Shown in pieces: positions 6,234 through 34,136 of a stretch of DNA of 64,000 nt (its first letter is position 1; the number at the start of each line of letters is the position of its first letter). This DNA is from Escherichia coli (GTDB lineage: Bacteria; Pseudomonadota; Gammaproteobacteria; Enterobacterales; Enterobacteriaceae), in the NCBI RefSeq assembly GCF_016903815.1, contig NZ_CP069973.1; one strand, 5' to 3'. The notes under the pieces were generated by a model that saw only the letters and a program-made list of their open reading frames with translations, did no database searches and had not been told where the DNA came from. A program made the position numbers and the translations under genes.

Positions 6234-7684
6234 CAGAATCCTCCTTTCTTCTTGGACTGCGGTTCCTCGCGTTCACGGCGGCGCATTTCAGCAGACTGTT
6301 GGTCTGTGTCATAAATAGCGCCATTTGCCTGAATGCAATACACCGTGCCGGTATTGCCATGACGATTGAGGCGAAGGATTAGTTCGGTTTCACCAGGAGG
6401 AAAGCTGTCATCAAAAGCACCTTCACGATGGATCCCAACCCAATAATCGCAATCCTGTTCAATCTGCCCTGTATCTCGTGAGTCACTTGGTAATGGGCGT
6501 TTATTGGTTCGGCTTTCCAGTGCGCGGTTAAGCTGTGTCAGAAGCACAACAACGCAATCAAGCTCTTTGGCAAGGTTCTTCAGTCCTTTGGTGATCATGC
6601 CGTAAGCAAGGTCGTTGCGATCGGCCTTTTCAGCGGTCATTAGTGTCAGGTAATCGACCAGAATCATGCCAACACATCCTTTTTCTCGCTTGATTCGACG
6701 GCTTTCGCTGACGATTTGAGCCAGAGATAATCCCGGCGTGTCGTCGATGTAAAGCAGGTCGATTTCACTCAAGCGATTGGCTGTTTCGATCGCCCTGTTG
6801 AAGTCACCATCGTAATCACCCTGATAGCCGTCATCAGCGTCATTTGTCGCCGGAAGGTAAAAAATATTGGGGTTAACACCTGACTTTTGCCCTACCAGTT
6901 TTTCCAGTATCTGGTCACCTGGCATTTCAAGGCTGAACATCAGAGCGGGCTTTTTCTCATGCACTGCGCAGTTGATTGCCATCTGGCTGTATAGCGTCGT
7001 TTTCCCCATCTTAGGGCGAGCGCCAATGACAAACAAAGAGCCTTTCACCAGACCTTTCGGTGACAGCATCCTGTCCAGCGATGGGATCCCTGTGCTCATT
7101 CCTCGTTGTTCGCCTGACGGGTCAAAACGCTTCTCAAGGTCGCTAACCCAGTCTTCCATGACCTCACCAAATGAGCGAAGTCCGCGACGCGATCCGGTTT
7201 TTGCATGGTCTGTCAGTTGCGTGAAAATCGCCTGAATAGCTTCGTACTTCTGCGTTGCAGTCATTCCGTTGCGGGAATAGAGCAATTCCGTCGCTTCAGT
7301 CATGCGGTTGATGGCGTAGCGTTCCATTGCGGTTTCGCGAACCTGCATTGCATAGGCAACGATGTTTGCTGCGCTTGGCGTGTTCTTTGCGATCTCAGCG
7401 ATATAAGCAAAACCGCCAACAGACGCCGTTAACGATTTACGCTCCAGTTCATCGAAAAGCGTCAGGCCATCTACTGGCTTTTGCTCCCGGTGCATTCTGG
7501 TTATCTCTTCGAAAAGGATTTTGTGTGGTCGGCTGTAAAATGAATCAGGCTTCAGCATCGCCAGAACTTTCTGGACGCGCTCACTGCTGTCATCATCCAG
7601 AAGCAATCCACCAATCACCGCCTGCTCTGCCTCGATGCTATGGGGCGGCGCATAAAAATTATCGGTCATCGTGTTCACCCTCAC
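6233..7684 (-). CDS. Replicative DNA helicase, DnaB family (phage-encoded)
   Basis: 483 aa; DnaB-like N-terminus (HSIEAEQAVIGGLLLD) and Walker A GARPKMGKTTL. Confidence 0.85.
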   Translation of the reverse strand: MRVNTMTDNFYAPPHSIEAEQAVIGGLLLDDDSSERVQKVLAMLKPDSFYSRPHKILFEEITRMHREQKPVDGLTLFDELERKSLTASVGGFAYIAEIAKNTPSAANIVAYAMQVRETAMERYAINRMTEATELLYSRNGMTATQKYEAIQAIFTQLTDHAKTGSRRGLRSFGEVMEDWVSDLEKRFDPSGEQRGMSTGIPSLDRMLSPKGLVKGSLFVIGARPKMGKTTLYSQMAINCAVHEKKPALMFSLEMPGDQILEKLVGQKSGVNPNIFYLPATNDADDGYQGDYDGDFNRAIETANRLSEIDLLYIDDTPGLSLAQIVSESRRIKREKGCVGMILVDYLTLMTAEKADRNDLAYGMITKGLKNLAKELDCVVVLLTQLNRALESRTNKRPLPSDSRDTGQIEQDCDYWVGIHREGAFDDSFPPGETELILRLNRHGNTGTVYCIQANGAIYDTDQQSAEMRRREREEPQSKKKGGF

Positions 7685-27566: not shown

Positions 27567-28193
27567 ATGAACGTTAGAATTTACTGCCGAGCATCAACTG
27601 AGGGGCAACACGCTGATCGAGCACTTACCAGCCTACGTGAATTTTCAAAATCAAAAGGCTGGCAGATTGCAGGAGAGTATATAGAAAATGCTAGCGGGGC
27701 GAAGCTTGAGCGCGTAGAGCTTATGCGGCTATTGTCTGAAGCCCAGTCCGGCGATCTGTTGCTAGTGGAAGCTATAGATCGTCTGAGTCGCCTAGAACAT
27801 AGCGCATGGGTCGAACTGAAAGATACGCTCAACCGAAAAGGGTTAATCATCGTATCAATGGATTTACCAACGAGCTGGCAGATGGTCGAGATGGCAGGCA
27901 ATGACCTAACCAGCGGCATCCTGAGAGCCGTAAATGCCATGTTGATTGATATCCTTGCCACAATGGCACGGCAGGATTACGAAACACGTCGTAAACGCCA
28001 ACAGCAAGGCATTGAGCGAGCTAAAAGCGAAGGAATATACATTGGCAGGGAGAAAAATCAGGAAGCCCGAGAGATCGTTAGAGAGATGTTGGAGCAAGGA
28101 GTAAAACCTGAACTCATCATGAAGGCAGCAGGAATCAGCCGAGCGACTTACTACCGTATAAAAAGTGAGCTGTCAGTCGTAAAATCAGAATAA
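27567..28193 (+). CDS. Serine recombinase (resolvase/invertase family)
   Basis: 208 aa; N-terminal VRIYCRASTEGQ catalytic-serine motif and C-terminal HTH. Confidence 0.85.
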   Translation: MNVRIYCRASTEGQHADRALTSLREFSKSKGWQIAGEYIENASGAKLERVELMRLLSEAQSGDLLLVEAIDRLSRLEHSAWVELKDTLNRKGLIIVSMDLPTSWQMVEMAGNDLTSGILRAVNAMLIDILATMARQDYETRRKRQQQGIERAKSEGIYIGREKNQEAREIVREMLEQGVKPELIMKAAGISRATYYRIKSELSVVKSE

Positions 28194-28790: not shown

Positions 28791-30038
28791 CTATATTGCT
28801 GAAGGTACAGGCGTTTCCATAACTATTTGCTCGCGTTTTTTACTCAGGAAGAAAATGCCAAATAGCAACATCAGGCAGACAATACCCGAAATTGCGAAGA
28901 AAACTGTCTGGTAGCCTGCGTGGTCAAAGAGTATCCCAGTCGGCGTTGAAAGCAGCACAATCCCAAGCGAACTGGCAATTTGAAAACCAATCAGAAAGAT
29001 CGTCGACGACAGGCGCTTATCAAAGTTTGCCACGCTGTATTTGAAGACGGATATGACACAAAGTGGAACCTCAATGGCATGTAACAGCTTCACTAATGAA
29101 ATAATCCAGGGGTTAACGAACAACGCGCAGGAAAGGATACGCAACGCCATAATCACAACACCGATAAGTAATGCATTTTTTGGCCCTACCCGATTCACAA
29201 AGAAAGGAATAATCGCCATGCACAGCGCTTCGAGTACCACCTGGAATGAGTTGAGATAACCATACAGGCGCGTTCCTACATCGTGTGATTCGAATAAACC
29301 TGCATAAAAGACAGGAAAGAGTTGTTGATCAAAAATGTTATAGAAAGACCACGTCCCCACAATAAATATGACGAAAACCCAGAAGTTTCGATCCTTGAAA
29401 ACTGCGATAAAATCCTCTTTTTTTACCCCTCCCGCATCCGCCGCTATGCACTGGTGATCCTTATCTTTAAAACGCATGTTGATCATCATAAATACAGCGC
29501 CAAATAGCGAGACCAACCAGAAGTTGATATGGGGACTGATACTAAAAAATATACCGGCAAAGAACGCGCCAATAGCATAGCCAAAAGATCCCCAGGCGCG
29601 CGCTGTTCCATATTCGAAATGAAAATTTCGCGCCATTTTTTCGGTGAAGCTGTCAAGCAAACCGCATCCCGCCAGATACCCCAGGCCAAAAAAGAGCGCC
29701 CCCAGAATTAGACCTACAGAAAAATTGCTTTGCAGTAACGGTTCATAAACGTAAATCATAAACGGTCCGGTCAAGACCAGAATGAAACTCATACACCAGA
29801 TGAGCGGTTTCTTCAGACCGAGTTTATCCTGAACGATGCCGTAGAACATCATAAATAGAATGCTGGTAAACTGGTTGACCGAATAAAGTGTACCTAATTC
29901 CGTCCCTGTTAATCCTAGATGTCCTTTCAGCCAAATAGCGTATAACGACCACCACAGCGACCAGGAAATAAAAAAGAGAAATGAGTAACTGGATGCAAAA
30001 CGATAGTACGCATTTCTGAATGGAATATTCAGTGCCAT
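28791..30038 (-). CDS. cscB: Sucrose:proton symporter (MFS, LacY-like)
   Basis: 415-aa 12-TM protein with a LacY-like N-terminus, in the csc gene order. Confidence 0.85.
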   Translation of the reverse strand: MALNIPFRNAYYRFASSYSFLFFISWSLWWSLYAIWLKGHLGLTGTELGTLYSVNQFTSILFMMFYGIVQDKLGLKKPLIWCMSFILVLTGPFMIYVYEPLLQSNFSVGLILGALFFGLGYLAGCGLLDSFTEKMARNFHFEYGTARAWGSFGYAIGAFFAGIFFSISPHINFWLVSLFGAVFMMINMRFKDKDHQCIAADAGGVKKEDFIAVFKDRNFWVFVIFIVGTWSFYNIFDQQLFPVFYAGLFESHDVGTRLYGYLNSFQVVLEALCMAIIPFFVNRVGPKNALLIGVVIMALRILSCALFVNPWIISLVKLLHAIEVPLCVISVFKYSVANFDKRLSSTIFLIGFQIASSLGIVLLSTPTGILFDHAGYQTVFFAISGIVCLMLLFGIFFLSKKREQIVMETPVPSAI

Positions 30039-30099: not shown

Positions 30100-31023
30100 T
30101 TACTTCTCACCTTCCAGTTCTTGTCGACATGGCAGCGCTGTCATTGCCCCTTTCGCTGTTACTGCAAGCGCTCCGCAACGTTGAGCGAGATTGATAATTC
30201 GTCGCATTTCTCTCTCATCTGTAGATAATCCCGTAGAGGACAGACCTGTGAGTAACCCGGCAACGAACGCATCTCCCGCCCCAGTGCTATCGACACAATT
30301 CACAGACATTCCAGCAAAATGGTGAACTTGTCCTCGATAACAGACCACCACCCCTTCTGCACCTTTAGTCACCAACAGCATGGCGATCTCATACTCTTTT
30401 GCCAGCGCGCATATATCCCGATCGTTCTGTGTTTTTCCACTGATAAGTCGCCATTCTTCTTCCGAGAGCTTGACGACATCCGCCAGTTGTAGCGCCTGCC
30501 GCAAACACAAGCGGAACAAATGCTCGTCTTGCCATAGATCTTCACGAATATTGGGATCGAAGCTGACAAAACCTCCGGCATGCCGGATCGCCGTCATCGC
30601 AGTAAATGCGCTGGTACGCGAAGGCTCGGCAGACAACGCAATTGAACAGAGATGTAACCATTCGCCATGTCGCCAGCAGGGCAAGTCTGTCGTCTCTAAA
30701 AAAAGATCGGCACTGGGGCGGACCATAAACGTAAATGAACGTTCTCCTTGATCGTTCAGATCGACAAGCACCGTGGATGTCCGGTGCCATTCATCTTGCT
30801 TCAGATACGTGATATCGACACCCTCAGTTAGCAGCGTTCTTTGCATTAACGCACCAAAAGGATCATCACCGACCCGACCTATAAACCCACTTGTTCCGCC
30901 TAATCTGGCGATTCCCACCGCAACGTTAGCTGGCGCGCCGCCAGGACAAGGCAGTAGCCGCCCGTCTGATTCTGGCAAGAGATCTACGACCGCATCCCCT
31001 AAAACCCATACTTTGGCTGACAT
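30100..31023 (-). CDS. cscK: Fructokinase (PfkB family)
   Basis: 307 aa; ribokinase-family motifs (GDAVVD, DSTGAGDAFVAG). Confidence 0.9.
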   Translation of the reverse strand: MSAKVWVLGDAVVDLLPESDGRLLPCPGGAPANVAVGIARLGGTSGFIGRVGDDPFGALMQRTLLTEGVDITYLKQDEWHRTSTVLVDLNDQGERSFTFMVRPSADLFLETTDLPCWRHGEWLHLCSIALSAEPSRTSAFTAMTAIRHAGGFVSFDPNIREDLWQDEHLFRLCLRQALQLADVVKLSEEEWRLISGKTQNDRDICALAKEYEIAMLLVTKGAEGVVVCYRGQVHHFAGMSVNCVDSTGAGDAFVAGLLTGLSSTGLSTDEREMRRIINLAQRCGALAVTAKGAMTALPCRQELEGEK

Positions 31024-31128
31024 TTTTTTCCCTTAAATTCATCTGACTTACGCATAGTGATAAACCTCTTTTTCGCAAAATCGTCATGGATTTACTAAAA
31101 CATGCATATTCGATCACAAAACGTCATA

Positions 31129-31204
31129 GTTAACGTTAACATTTGTGATATTCATCGCATTTATGAAAGTAATGGACTTTATTTTTATAAAAGTTAACGT
31201 TAAC
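31129..31204. promoter_or_regulatory. Two identical 12-bp palindromes GTTAACGTTAAC (31129-31140, 31193-31204) in the cscK-cscA divergent promoter region; candidate CscR operators
   Basis: Perfect palindromes 64 bp apart between divergent csc genes, typical of LacI-family operators. Confidence 0.45.
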
Positions 31205-31229
31205 AATTCACCAAATTTGCTTAACCAGG

Positions 31230-32672
31230 ATGATAAAAATGACGCAATCTCGATTACATGCGGCGCAAAACGCACTAGCAAAACTTCACGAGCGCCGAGG
31301 TAACACTTTCTATCCCCATTTTCACCTCGCGCCTCCTGCCGGGTGGATGAACGATCCAAACGGCCTGATCTGGTTTAACGATCGTTATCACGCGTTTTAT
31401 CAACATCACCCGATGAGCGAACACTGGGGGCCAATGCACTGGGGACATGCCACCAGCGACGATATGATCCACTGGCAGCATAAGCCTATTGCGCTAGCGC
31501 CAGGAGACGAGAATGACAAAGACGGGTGTTTTTCAGGTAGTGCTGTCGATGACAATGGTGTCCTCTCACTTATCTACACCGGACACGTCTGGCTCGATGG
31601 TGCAGGTAATGACGATGCAATTCGCGAAGTACAATGTCTGGCTACCAGTCGGGATGGTATTCATTTCGAGAAACAGGGTGTGATCCTCACTCCACCAGAA
31701 GGAATCATGCACTTCCGCGATCCTAAAGTGTGGCGTGAAGCCGACACATGGTGGATGGTTGTCGGGGCGAAAGATCCAGGCAACACGGGGCAGATCCTGC
31801 TTTATCGCGGCAGTTCATTGCGTGAATGGACCTTCGATCGCGTACTGGCCCACGCTGATGCGGGTGAAAGCTATATGTGGGAATGTCCGGACTTTTTCAG
31901 CCTTGGCGATCAGCATTATCTGATGTTTTCCCCGCAGGGAATGAATGCCGAGGGATACAGTTACCGAAATCGCTTTCAAAGTGGCGTAATACCCGGAATG
32001 TGGTCGCCAGGACGACTTTTTGCACAATCCGGGCATTTTACTGAACTTGATAACGGGCATGACTTTTATGCACCACAAAGCTTTTTAGCGAAGGATGGTC
32101 GGCGTATTGTTATCGGCTGGATGGATATGTGGGAATCGCCAATGCCCTCAAAACGTGAAGGCTGGGCAGGCTGCATGACGCTGGCGCGCGAGCTATCAGA
32201 GAGCAATGGCAAACTTCTACAACGCCCGGTACACGAAGCTGAGTCGTTACGCCAGCAGCATCAATCTATCTCTCCCCGCACAATCAGCAATAAATATGTT
32301 TTGCAGGAAAACGCGCAAGCAGTTGAGATTCAGTTGCAGTGGGCGCTGAAGAACAGTGATGCCGAACATTACGGATTACAGCTCGGCACTGGAATGCGGC
32401 TGTATATTGATAACCAATCTGAGCGACTTGTTTTGTGGCGGTATTACCCACACGAGAATTTAGATGGCTACCGTAGTATTCCCCTCCCGCAGGGTGACAT
32501 GCTCGCCCTAAGGATATTTATCGATACATCATCCGTGGAAGTATTTATTAACGACGGGGAGGCGGTGATGAGTAGCCGAATATATCCGCAGCCAGAAGAA
32601 CGGGAACTGTCGCTCTATGCCTCCCACGGAGTGGCTGTGCTGCAACATGGAGCACTCTGGCAACTGGGTTAA
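31230..32672 (+). CDS. cscA: Sucrose-6-phosphate hydrolase / invertase (GH32)
   Basis: GH32 motifs WMNDPNG, FRDP and WECPD. Confidence 0.9.
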   Translation: MIKMTQSRLHAAQNALAKLHERRGNTFYPHFHLAPPAGWMNDPNGLIWFNDRYHAFYQHHPMSEHWGPMHWGHATSDDMIHWQHKPIALAPGDENDKDGCFSGSAVDDNGVLSLIYTGHVWLDGAGNDDAIREVQCLATSRDGIHFEKQGVILTPPEGIMHFRDPKVWREADTWWMVVGAKDPGNTGQILLYRGSSLREWTFDRVLAHADAGESYMWECPDFFSLGDQHYLMFSPQGMNAEGYSYRNRFQSGVIPGMWSPGRLFAQSGHFTELDNGHDFYAPQSFLAKDGRRIVIGWMDMWESPMPSKREGWAGCMTLARELSESNGKLLQRPVHEAESLRQQHQSISPRTISNKYVLQENAQAVEIQLQWALKNSDAEHYGLQLGTGMRLYIDNQSERLVLWRYYPHENLDGYRSIPLPQGDMLALRIFIDTSSVEVFINDGEAVMSSRIYPQPEERELSLYASHGVAVLQHGALWQLG

Positions 32673-32679
32673 CATAATA

Positions 32680-33675
32680 TCAGGTGGAACAACGGATCAA
32701 CAGCGGGCAAGGGATCCGCGTCACTCTTCCCCCTTCACGATCTTCAATAATATGCAATGCAGCTTCCCGCCCGATAATGTCATGTGGAAGCTGAATTGTG
32801 GTCAGCGGCGGTAAAAACAGATGCCCGACGCCAACCAGATTATCAAAGCCCATTACGGCGACATCCTGCGGGATACGTACCCCCTTCGCCAGGAGAACCT
32901 GATAAGCGACAAAGGCTGCGCGATCGTTACCACATATCAGAACATCAAAATCTGGTTTGCCAGATTTGAAGTGGGCATTGAGTAAACTTGCGAGATCGGT
33001 GTAGTGATCATCACCTGTTGCCATGTGAAATTGTTTCACCTCAGCCAGATCTCGTCCAGCATCACGCCAGGCCTGCTCAAATCCCTGCCGACGATACCCT
33101 GTTGCCAACGCACTTTCCGGTAGCCAGAAGCATAACGGTTGACGATAGCCCGCCGCGAGCAAATGCTGTGTTGATTCATATTGTGCAGTGTAATCATCAG
33201 GGATATAACTGGGTAACGCTGGGTCATCCGCCACACAGTTCGCCAATACAATATTTTCACCATACAGAGACTCAGGCAGCGTGATATGTCGCAGCCCCAT
33301 TGTAGTATAGATAATGCCATCCGGACGGTGGGCAAGCAGCTGACGAGCAGCACGGGCAGCGTCATCTTCAGAAAAAATATTGATTAAAAAACTATTCCAG
33401 CCGAACTCGCTGGCGGTTTGCTCAATGGCAAGCAGAATATCAACAGAGAAAGGAGTGGTAGCAGTGTCCTGCGCCAGCACGGCGAGAGTCGACGGCTTAC
33501 GTCCTTGAGCGCGCATCTTACGGGCGGAAAGATCAGGAACATAATTCAGGGTCTGGATTGCCTGCAATACGCGGTCACGCGTTGCAGGACGCACAGATTC
33601 TGCATTATGCATCACCCGGGAGACTGTCATCATCGACACTCCCGCCAGGCGTGCGACATCCTTTAATGAAGCCAT
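32680..33675 (-). CDS. cscR: LacI-family sucrose repressor
   Basis: From the internal Met, MASLKDVARLAGVSMMTVSRVMHN... is a LacI-type HTH; the ORF-track extension upstream is probably not translated. Confidence 0.85.
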   Translation of the reverse strand: MASLKDVARLAGVSMMTVSRVMHNAESVRPATRDRVLQAIQTLNYVPDLSARKMRAQGRKPSTLAVLAQDTATTPFSVDILLAIEQTASEFGWNSFLINIFSEDDAARAARQLLAHRPDGIIYTTMGLRHITLPESLYGENIVLANCVADDPALPSYIPDDYTAQYESTQHLLAAGYRQPLCFWLPESALATGYRRQGFEQAWRDAGRDLAEVKQFHMATGDDHYTDLASLLNAHFKSGKPDFDVLICGNDRAAFVAYQVLLAKGVRIPQDVAVMGFDNLVGVGHLFLPPLTTIQLPHDIIGREAALHIIEDREGGRVTRIPCPLLIRCST

Positions 33676-33904
33676 ACCCAAGCCGTTTGCCGTAAAACGG
33701 GCACTGTAGCAGAAACAGACGTCACTGGCGAGATCCAACGATATTCTCGACGCCCTATCACCCGACACGGCAATACAATAAAAAATAACAATAATTCCCG
33801 GACAATTGTACCCAATTCCGCCTCTGTTCTCGCCAACGAGTAACCATGTAGGCAAGTAGGTAAAACATGCCAACTGGCATCGCCAACCTGGAGAAGAAAA
33901 TATA

Positions 33905-34136
33905 AATATGGATCATTGTGCTGCCGCTGTATCCCGACATCAGCCCGGAAATTATTGCGATTGCTATCGGTTCAGGTGCGATTGGCTGCACGATCGTTAC
34001 GGACTCGCTTTTCTGGCTGGTGAAGCAATATTGCGGCGCTACGCTCAATGAAACATTTAAATACTATACGACCGCGACATTTATCGCTTCAGTCGTCGCT
34101 CTGGCGGGCACATTCCTGCTGTCATTTATCATCTAA
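33905..34136 (+). pseudogene. dsdX: 3-prime remnant of the D-serine permease gene dsdX (truncated by the csc insertion)
   Basis: Encodes only a GntP-family C-terminus (...[41 protein letters not shown]...) immediately upstream of dsdA. Confidence 0.6.

What the first reader, a model, noticed from the sequence alone, without database searches (positions are those of the whole stretch)
31129..31204. Twin 12-bp palindromes in the csc divergent promoter
GTTAACGTTAAC occurs twice, 64 bp apart, between cscK and cscA. Perfect palindromes with this spacing are typical operator pairs for a LacI-family repressor such as CscR.
Basis: seen in the sequence. Interest (0 to 1): 0.2.

Follow-up and report, generated by a model that had tools for sequence, protein, structure and literature searches.

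The report
Known CscR operator pair, sucrose genes
The two identical 12-base palindromes between the E. coli sucrose genes cscK and cscA are real and are the already published binding sites of the sucrose repressor CscR, so the finding is correct but ordinary.

Summary
GTTAACGTTAAC occurs exactly twice in the window, at 31129-31140 and 31193-31204, 64 bp start to start. About 0.005 exact copies are expected by chance. The sites lie between cscK(B) on the minus strand and cscA on the plus strand, next to the LacI-family gene cscR.

Jahreis et al. 2002, as cited in PMC11251922 and PMC3938415, described two copies of a 12-bp inverted repeat here as putative CscR operators. Mutations in one of them de-repress the regulon.

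My own comparison agrees. In 80 loci that encode CscR relatives (49-96% identity, Enterobacterales, Gilliamella, Pseudomonas), the exact 12-mer occurs 91 times against 0.07 expected, always beside sucrose genes. It forms a pair in 64 loci, mostly 63-64 bp apart.

The conserved layout is CRP site, distal operator, CRP site, promoter, proximal operator. The proximal operator covers the predicted cscA transcription start. The distal operator sits 3 bp from the main CRP site.

Most likely mechanism: promoter occlusion at the proximal site, plus interference with CRP activation or short-range looping at the distal site. Direct CscR binding was not testable here.

Novelty: already known. Interest: low.

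The parts
31129..31140 (.). Distal operator O1 (GTTAACGTTAAC), the copy nearer cscK. It lies between two CRP-like sites. Secondary sources call one of the two copies the 'cscKB operator'; assigning that name to O1 is my inference from position.
   Evidence: An exact or 1-mismatch copy sits at the same relative position in 64 of 80 orthologous loci. Consensus with flank is (A)TGTTAACGTTAAC.
31193..31204 (.). Proximal operator O2 (GTTAACGTTAAC), 34 nt before the cscA start codon. It overlaps the predicted cscA transcription start.
   Evidence: PMC11251922 states that the downstream operator overlaps the transcription start.
31144..31159 (.). CRP-like site CRP1 (TGTGAtattcaTCGCA, 9 of 10 consensus positions), 3 bp from O1. 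It lies inside the operator pair, at about -41.5 if the start is near 31193.
   Evidence: Found at a fixed 3-4 bp gap after the distal operator with at least 7 of 10 matches in 61 of 65 regions. A putative CRP site next to the -35 region is reported in PMC11251922.
31103..31118 (.). Second, weaker CRP-like site CRP2 (TGCATattcgaTCACA, 7 of 10), 10 bp before O1 on the cscK side.
   Evidence: Found at a fixed 10-bp gap with at least 7 of 10 matches in 51 of 65 regions. 'Two cAMP-CrpA binding sites' in the bidirectional promoter are mentioned in PMC3938415.
31180..31191 (+). Predicted -10 region of the cscA promoter. Two candidates: TATTTT at 31180-31185, which puts CRP1 at -41.5, or TATAAA at 31186-31191. 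This is inferred, not mapped.
   Evidence: TATNTT is conserved in the E. coli, Citrobacter, Pluralibacter and Serratia regions. The strict consensus scan found no promoter, as expected for an activator-dependent promoter.
31239..32672 (+). cscA, sucrose hydrolase (invertase, GH32), 477 aa.
   Evidence: TIGR01322, E = 3e-143. RefSeq annotation of an identical locus.
30100..31023 (-). cscK, fructokinase.
   Evidence: NF006957, E = 4e-152.
28791..30038 (-). cscB, sucrose:H+ symporter (oligosaccharide MFS transporter).
   Evidence: TIGR00882, E = 9e-179.
32680..33675 (-). cscR, LacI-family repressor, 331 aa. The 397-aa ORF from a TTG codon in the mechanical ORF list is an over-extension.
   Evidence: PF00356 helix-turn-helix plus PF13377 and PF00532 sugar-binding domains.

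Best explanation
The twin palindromes are the two operators of the LacI/GalR-family sucrose repressor CscR, in the control region shared by cscA and cscKB. Without inducer, one CscR dimer binds each 12-bp palindrome. By family analogy the two half-sites are GTTAAC and the hinge helices sit at the central CG.

The proximal operator (31193-31204) covers the start of a CRP-dependent cscA promoter. The CRP site is at 31144-31159 and the -10 region is near 31180-31191. Bound CscR there would block RNA polymerase.

The distal operator (31129-31140) sits 3 bp from that CRP site and 10 bp from a second CRP-like site (31103-31118). Bound CscR there would interfere with CRP-dependent activation of cscA and of the divergent cscKB promoter, and may also pair with the proximal dimer.

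The 64-bp spacing follows from this geometry: operator-to-CRP 17 bp, CRP-to-start 41.5 bp, start-to-operator centre about 5.5 bp.

Shown here: the sites, their improbability, their conservation and their co-occurrence with cscR. Taken from the literature: repression by CscR, CRP dependence and de-repressing operator mutations. Inferred: the transcription start, the occlusion and anti-activation steps, and dimer stoichiometry.
For: - Exact twin sites: 2 observed against 0.005 expected.
- A LacI-family regulator is encoded next to them.
- In 80 loci with CscR relatives, 91 exact copies occur against 0.07 expected in 1.13 Mb, all beside csc-like genes.
- 64 of these loci have a pair, at spacings of 64 (36 loci), 63 (13), 62 (2), 57 (9), 69 (3) and 71 (1) bp.
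- Only the operators and the two CRP-like sites are conserved in otherwise diverged intergenic DNA.
- The motif follows CscR whatever the gene order: upstream of cscA, upstream of a cscB-like gene, or between a cscB-like gene and cscR. In Pseudomonas it occurs as a single site 30 nt before the first gene of an operon that ends in cscA-cscR.
- Literature: two 12-bp inverted repeats were identified as putative operators, one was the site of an up-regulating mutation, and the downstream one overlaps the transcription start (PMC11251922). An operator mutation that confers growth on low sucrose was recovered again (PMC3938415). Loss of cscR de-represses (PMC3938415, PMC6599523).
Against: - I could read no direct binding data (gel shift or footprint). 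The primary papers, Jahreis 2002 (PMC135337) and Sabri 2013 (PMC3553775), are not held.
- The transcription starts are predicted only, and the consensus promoter scan found nothing.
- For cscKB the distal operator lies upstream of the CRP2 site rather than over the core promoter, so simple occlusion cannot explain cscKB repression.
- The secondary sources disagree on whether the mutated operator raised cscA expression (PMC11251922) or is the 'cscKB' operator (PMC3938415).
Confidence: 0.9

Rival explanations
1. Repression loop. The two CscR dimers contact each other and loop out the 52 bp that carry CRP1 and the cscA promoter, as in gal OE/OI or lac O1/O3. On this reading the 64-bp spacing is conserved to keep both sites on one face of the helix.
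For: The two operators flank the promoter. Spacing is 62-64 bp, about 6 helical turns, in 51 of 64 loci that have a pair. Two operators that flank -35 and -10 are also reported for ScrR at the scrY promoter (PMC11251922).
Against: Spacings of 57 bp (9 Gilliamella loci), 69 bp (3 Proteus loci) and 71 bp are about half a turn out of phase. The tighter invariant is the 3-4 bp gap between the distal operator and CRP1, seen in 61 of 65 regions; together with promoter geometry this gives 64 bp without any loop. CscR ends at position 329 of the 358-position LacI-subfamily profile, so it lacks a LacI-type C-terminal tetramerisation helix. A 64-bp loop would be very tight.
Confidence: 0.3
2. The palindromes are bound mainly by a different regulator, and the link with CscR is coincidental. 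Candidates are another LacI paralogue with a similar box such as GntR or IdnR, or ArcA, whose half-site resembles TGTTAA.
For: Recalled from memory and not checked here: the extended consensus ATGTTAACGTTAACAT resembles the outer bases of GntR-type boxes, and GTTAA resembles the ArcA half-site. csc expression falls more than 10-fold on the shift to anaerobiosis in a strain deleted for cscR, with no factor assigned (PMC12465659).
Against: The motif co-occurs with cscR relatives in 70 or more loci across three orders and several gene orders, and is essentially absent elsewhere in those loci. The GTTAAC units are 6 bp apart, not the 11 bp I recall for ArcA repeats. Loss of cscR alone de-represses (PMC3938415, PMC6599523).
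Confidence: 0.04
3. Chance or structural repeat without regulatory function. Examples: a local duplication, a remnant of a mobile element, or tandem HpaI sites (GTTAAC).
For: The sites are also 14-bp direct repeats and can recombine. One E. coli genome (O84:H7 Trh52) has a clean 64-bp deletion that leaves a single copy.
Against: Two copies observed against 0.005 expected. The sites are conserved exactly while the surrounding DNA has diverged beyond recognition, from E. coli to Gilliamella and Pseudomonas. Published operator mutations have a phenotype (PMC3938415, PMC11251922).
Confidence: 0.01

Closest known systems
CscR operators of the E. coli EC3132 / W csc regulon (Jahreis et al. 2002 J Bacteriol 184:5307; Sabri et al. 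2013; summarised in PMC11251922 and PMC3938415)
   Same: This is the same element: two copies of a 12-bp inverted repeat in the cscK-cscA intergenic region, with CRP sites, and with the downstream copy over the cscA start. The intergenic sequence is at least 95% identical in 2662 of 5426 complete E. coli genomes.
   Different: Nothing material. My survey extends the published five-species comparison to about 80 species-level loci. It also shows that the CRP2-operator-CRP1 arrangement persists where there is no divergent operon.
ScrR operators O1/O2 at the scrY promoter of pUR400 and Klebsiella (Jahreis and Lengeler 1993, as described in PMC11251922)
   Same: A LacI-family sucrose repressor with two palindromic operators placed just upstream and downstream of -35 and -10, the downstream one over the start, and a CRP site upstream.
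   Different: The repressor belongs to a different orthologous group. CscR matches the fructose/sucrose-repressor family TIGR02417 only weakly (E = 1.7e-11). The ScrR repeats are 14 bp with a different sequence, and the system is PTS-based rather than permease-based.
gal operon OE/OI with GalR and CRP (textbook knowledge, recalled from memory)
   Same: A dimeric LacI/GalR-family repressor. The upstream operator is centred about 17-19 bp upstream of a CRP site at -41.5, and a second operator lies downstream of the start.
   Different: In gal the second operator is at +53.5, the operators are 113 bp apart, and looping needs HU. Here the second operator is over the start and the sites are 64 bp apart. 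Looping is unproven.
CytR-regulated promoters such as deoP2, cdd and tsx (CytR comparative genomics in PMC3454398, seen only as a search hit and not read; other details recalled from memory)
   Same: A LacI-family repressor site placed between two CRP sites upstream of a CRP-dependent promoter.
   Different: CytR operators are weak, with variable half-site spacing, and need CRP contacts. The CscR operator is a perfect fixed palindrome. CscR is not a CytR orthologue (138 bits against a cut-off of 436). The CRP sites are 41 bp apart rather than about 52 bp.

Membership tests
LacI/GalR-family operator (CscR operator) | Even-length palindrome with a central CG step | tested here: met
   GTTAAC|GTTAAC is a perfect 12-bp palindrome with CG at the centre. 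The cross-species consensus extends one outer flank of each site towards ATGTTAACGTTAACAT. The family rule is stated in PMC4052901.
LacI/GalR-family operator (CscR operator) | Located in the 5' region of the regulated operon, typically 30-140 bp before the start codon | tested here: met
   The O2 centre is 40.5 bp and the O1 centre 104.5 bp before the cscA ATG (31239). The O1 centre is 111.5 bp before the cscK ATG (31023). The distance range is from PMC4052901.
LacI/GalR-family operator (CscR operator) | Cognate LacI-family regulator gene encoded in or next to the regulated locus | tested here: met
   cscR lies at 32680-33675 (-). It carries the LacI helix-turn-helix domain PF00356 and the sugar-binding domains PF13377 and PF00532.
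LacI/GalR-family operator (CscR operator) | The motif co-occurs with orthologues of the regulator across genomes (phylogenetic footprint) | tested here: met
   91 exact sites against 0.07 expected in 80 loci, all beside csc-like genes. Flanking DNA is not conserved.
LacI/GalR-family operator (CscR operator) | Physical binding by the repressor, released by inducer | not testable with these tools
   No binding data could be read; the primary papers are not held. The inducer is reported as undetermined (PMC3938415).
LacI/GalR-family operator (CscR operator) | Mutations in the site de-repress the operon | not testable with these tools
   Known only from the literature: an operator mutation that up-regulates expression or allows growth on low sucrose (PMC11251922, PMC3938415, both citing Jahreis 2002 and Sabri 2013).
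Looping dual-operator systems (lac O1/O3, gal OE/OI) | Two operators flank the promoter | tested here: met
   O1 and O2 enclose CRP1 and the predicted -10 region.
Looping dual-operator systems (lac O1/O3, gal OE/OI) | Inter-operator distance kept in helical phase | tested here: inconclusive
   62-64 bp in 51 of 64 loci, but 57, 69 and 71 bp in 13 loci. Promoter geometry explains 64 bp equally well.
Looping dual-operator systems (lac O1/O3, gal OE/OI) | Repressor carries a LacI-type C-terminal tetramerisation helix | tested here: not met
   CscR (331 aa) aligns to positions 6-329 of the 358-position LacI-subfamily profile NF007075 and ends there. GalR-like dimer-dimer contacts are not excluded.
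CytR-type anti-activation | Repressor site lies between tandem CRP sites | tested here: met
   The layout is CRP2, 10 bp, O1, 3 bp, CRP1. The offsets are conserved in 51 and 61 of 65 regions respectively.
CytR-type anti-activation | The regulator is a CytR orthologue with a weak, flexibly spaced operator | tested here: not met
   The CytR model gives 138 bits against a cut-off of 436. The operator is a perfect palindrome of fixed spacing.
CytR-type anti-activation | Direct repressor-CRP contact | not testable with these tools
   This needs footprinting with CRP and CscR together.

The most novel reading that the evidence does not exclude
The distal operator may not be just a second roadblock. 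It could be the core of an ancestral 'CRP-CscR-CRP sandwich', with fixed 10-bp and 3-bp gaps. This layout is kept in about 50 species, including those with no divergent operon upstream. On this reading CscR acts there as a CytR-like or GalR-OE-like anti-activator that touches or displaces CRP, while the proximal site blocks RNA polymerase. This would explain how cscKB is repressed in E. coli from a site upstream of its CRP box.
Probability: 0.25. Interest if true: 0.3.

Novelty: already known. Interest (0 to 1): 0.1.

Why it matters
It matters little for discovery, because these operators were described in 2002 and their conservation was re-examined in 2024.

Practical value:
- The sites are the handles for engineering sucrose-fed E. 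coli production strains, where operator or cscR mutations de-repress growth on low sucrose.
- The broad footprint gives a clean CscR motif (ATGTTAACGTTAACAT core) for annotating sucrose loci in Enterobacterales, Gilliamella and Pseudomonas.
- The conserved placement of the operator next to CRP sites is a small, testable question about how a plain LacI-type repressor and CRP share a promoter.

Tried and rejected
- Primary papers: I tried to read Jahreis 2002 (PMC135337) and Sabri 2013 (PMC3553775). Neither is held, so the experimental claims rest on secondary citations.
- Promoter scan: the consensus promoter and terminator scan of 30950-31300 found nothing. This is uninformative for a CRP-dependent promoter.
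- E. coli W genome paper (PMC3032704): it has no operator detail.
- Within-E. coli variation: five divergent alleles show about 12 variable positions, none in the operators. At about 98% identity this is not significant on its own, so I moved to distant orthologues.
- More CscR sites in the window: matches at 2 or 3 mismatches are at chance level. None lies upstream of cscR, so there is no sign of autoregulation in E. coli.
- The 64-bp deletion allele: among the listed hits only strain Trh52 carries it. The others are normal two-piece matches.
- ArcA or GntR cross-binding: considered and rejected as the main function. See the rival explanations.
- An RNA-level role for O2 in the cscA leader: considered and not pursued, because the other copy lies upstream of the promoter and DNA-level conservation explains both.

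Full report
**Observation.** The window reads GTTAACGTTAAC at 31129-31140 and again at 31193-31204. The 12-mer is its own reverse complement. The two copies are 64 bp apart start to start, with a 52-bp gap, and share one extra base on each side (AGTTAACGTTAACA). Base composition predicts about 0.005 exact copies per 64 kb. The window has 16 perfect 12-bp palindromes, about the chance number, but this is the only one that occurs twice. Looser matches elsewhere in the window are at chance level.

**Context.** The flanking genes are:
- cscB, 28791-30038 (-), an oligosaccharide MFS transporter
- cscK, 30100-31023 (-), a fructokinase
- cscA, 31239-32672 (+), a GH32 sucrose hydrolase
- cscR, 32680-33675 (-), a LacI-family regulator
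- a dsdX remnant followed by dsdA

An identical intergenic region occurs in E. coli strain 7/2. Copies at least 95% identical occur on the chromosome of 2662 of 5426 complete E. coli genomes. The window is therefore the well-known chromosomal csc sucrose locus of E. coli.

**Literature.** PMC11251922 (2024) states four things. Jahreis et al. 2002 identified two copies of a 12-bp inverted repeat between cscA and cscK as putative CscR operators. [quoted passage not shown] The repeats flank the -35 and -10 regions, with the downstream one over the transcription start. They and a CRP site are conserved in five species. PMC3938415 (2014) speaks of cscA and cscKB operator sites and of two cAMP-CRP sites in the bidirectional promoter, and it recovered again an operator mutation that allows growth on low sucrose. 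Loss of cscR de-represses. The primary papers are not in the library.

**Independent test.** I collected CscR relatives, aligned 29 of them and fetched 80 species-level loci from Citrobacter, Pluralibacter, Tatumella, Pectobacterium, Cedecea, Yersinia, Rahnella, Serratia, Providencia, Proteus, Klebsiella, Raoultella, Erwinia, Pantoea, Gilliamella and Pseudomonas (49-96% identity).
- Nearly all of these loci carry a cscA homologue and a cscB-like MFS gene, in at least three different gene orders.
- The exact 12-mer occurs 91 times in these 1.13 Mb against 0.07 expected, always beside the sucrose genes.
- 64 loci have a pair. The spacing is 64 bp (36 loci), 63 (13), 62 (2), 57 (9, Gilliamella), 69 (3, Proteus) or 71 (1).
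- Several loci without a pair are simply cut short of the upstream region.
- In Pseudomonas sp. GM48 a single exact site lies 30 nt before the first gene of an operon that ends in cscA-cscR.

**Architecture.** I oriented the regions toward the catabolic operon and anchored them on the operators. Only four blocks are conserved in otherwise diverged DNA:
- a CRP-like site (CRP2)
- then 10 bp and the distal operator
- then 3 bp and a strong CRP site (consensus TGTGATTAACATCAC, CRP1)
- then about 33 bp and the proximal operator, followed by 35-45 nt to the start codon

In the window these are CRP2 at 31103-31118, O1 at 31129-31140, CRP1 at 31144-31159 and O2 at 31193-31204. With CRP1 at the class II position (-41.5) the start falls at about 31193, and a TATTTT hexamer at 31180-31185 fits as the -10 region. 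A TATAAA at 31186-31191 is the alternative. Either way O2 covers the start. The sum 17 + 41.5 + 5.5 bp gives the 64-bp spacing without invoking a loop.

**Ancestral layout.** Loci of the Serratia, Yersinia and Enterobacter type have no divergent gene upstream of the pair, yet they keep CRP2. The CRP2-operator-CRP1 arrangement is therefore ancestral and not a special feature of the E. coli cscKB promoter.

**Mechanism.**
- Best supported: CscR dimers bind both palindromes. O2 occludes the cscA promoter. O1 abuts CRP1 and lies between two CRP sites, so it interferes with CRP-dependent activation of cscA and of cscKB.
- Looping between O1 and O2 remains possible (62-64 bp is about 6 turns) but is weakened on three counts. 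The 57-, 69- and 71-bp variants are out of phase. The operator-CRP1 offset is the tighter invariant. CscR lacks a LacI-type tetramerisation tail.
- For cscKB, O1 lies upstream of CRP2, so occlusion cannot be the mechanism there. This is the one step that is not explained by what I could read.
- Other regulators or chance are very unlikely, given how closely the motif follows cscR.

**Comparison and novelty.** This is the known CscR operator pair. It resembles the ScrR O1/O2 pair at scrY and, in the operator-CRP juxtaposition, gal OE and CytR-type promoters, but CscR is not an orthologue of those regulators. A close homologue has a solved structure, PDB 6NDI. The verdict is 'already known' with low interest. 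The only mildly new points are the breadth of the footprint and the conserved sandwich of the distal operator between two CRP sites.

Noticed in passing
L006 (NZ_CP047600.1, E. coli O84:H7 Trh52) 1501-1651; corresponds to window 31141-31204: This genome has a clean 64-bp deletion between the twin repeats. One palindrome remains, joined to the left flank of O1 and the right flank of O2. The deletion removes CRP1 and the predicted cscA promoter. It looks like slippage or recombination between the 14-bp direct repeats. It was the only such allele among the listed hits.
   Followed up: partly
window 31103-31118 and the equivalent position in L007-L082: A second CRP-like site is kept at a fixed 10-bp distance from the distal operator in about 50 species, including loci with no divergent operon upstream (L015, L020, L034). 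The distal CscR operator is thus sandwiched between two CRP sites 41 bp apart.
   Followed up: partly
L040-L066 (Gilliamella spp.), around 6820-6850 of each locus: Besides the pair upstream of cscA (57-bp spacing), Gilliamella loci carry two more near-consensus sites 14 bp apart (TTTAACGTTAAC and GTTAATGTTAAC). They lie between the cscB-like gene and cscR. This is a second regulated promoter, possibly with cscR autoregulation.
   Followed up: no
window 32680-33873 (-): The mechanical ORF list extends cscR to 397 aa from a TTG codon. The LacI helix-turn-helix domain starts at residue 66-70 of that ORF, and RefSeq annotates 331 aa (32680-33675). Similarly cscA is listed from the ATG at 31230, but the conserved start is the ATG at 31239.
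   Followed up: yes
window 33918-34136 (+) and 27567-28193 (+): A dsdX fragment lacking its N-terminus lies between cscR and an intact dsdA. A serine recombinase family gene and a DUF4942 fragment lie just beyond cscB. Both fit csc being an insertion at the argW/dsd recombination hotspot (PMC11251922).
   Followed up: no
window 31376-31387: Another perfect 12-bp palindrome, TAACGATCGTTA, lies inside cscA, in codons for WFNDRYH. It shares TAACG with the operator but has a different centre. The window holds the chance number of 12-bp palindromes, so this one is probably coincidental.
   Followed up: no
literature, PMC12465659: In a strain deleted for cscR, cscB, cscK and cscA fall to under 10% of their aerobic level after the shift to anaerobiosis. 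No regulator has been assigned. The control region therefore has an input beyond CscR; a change in CRP activity was not excluded.
   Followed up: no
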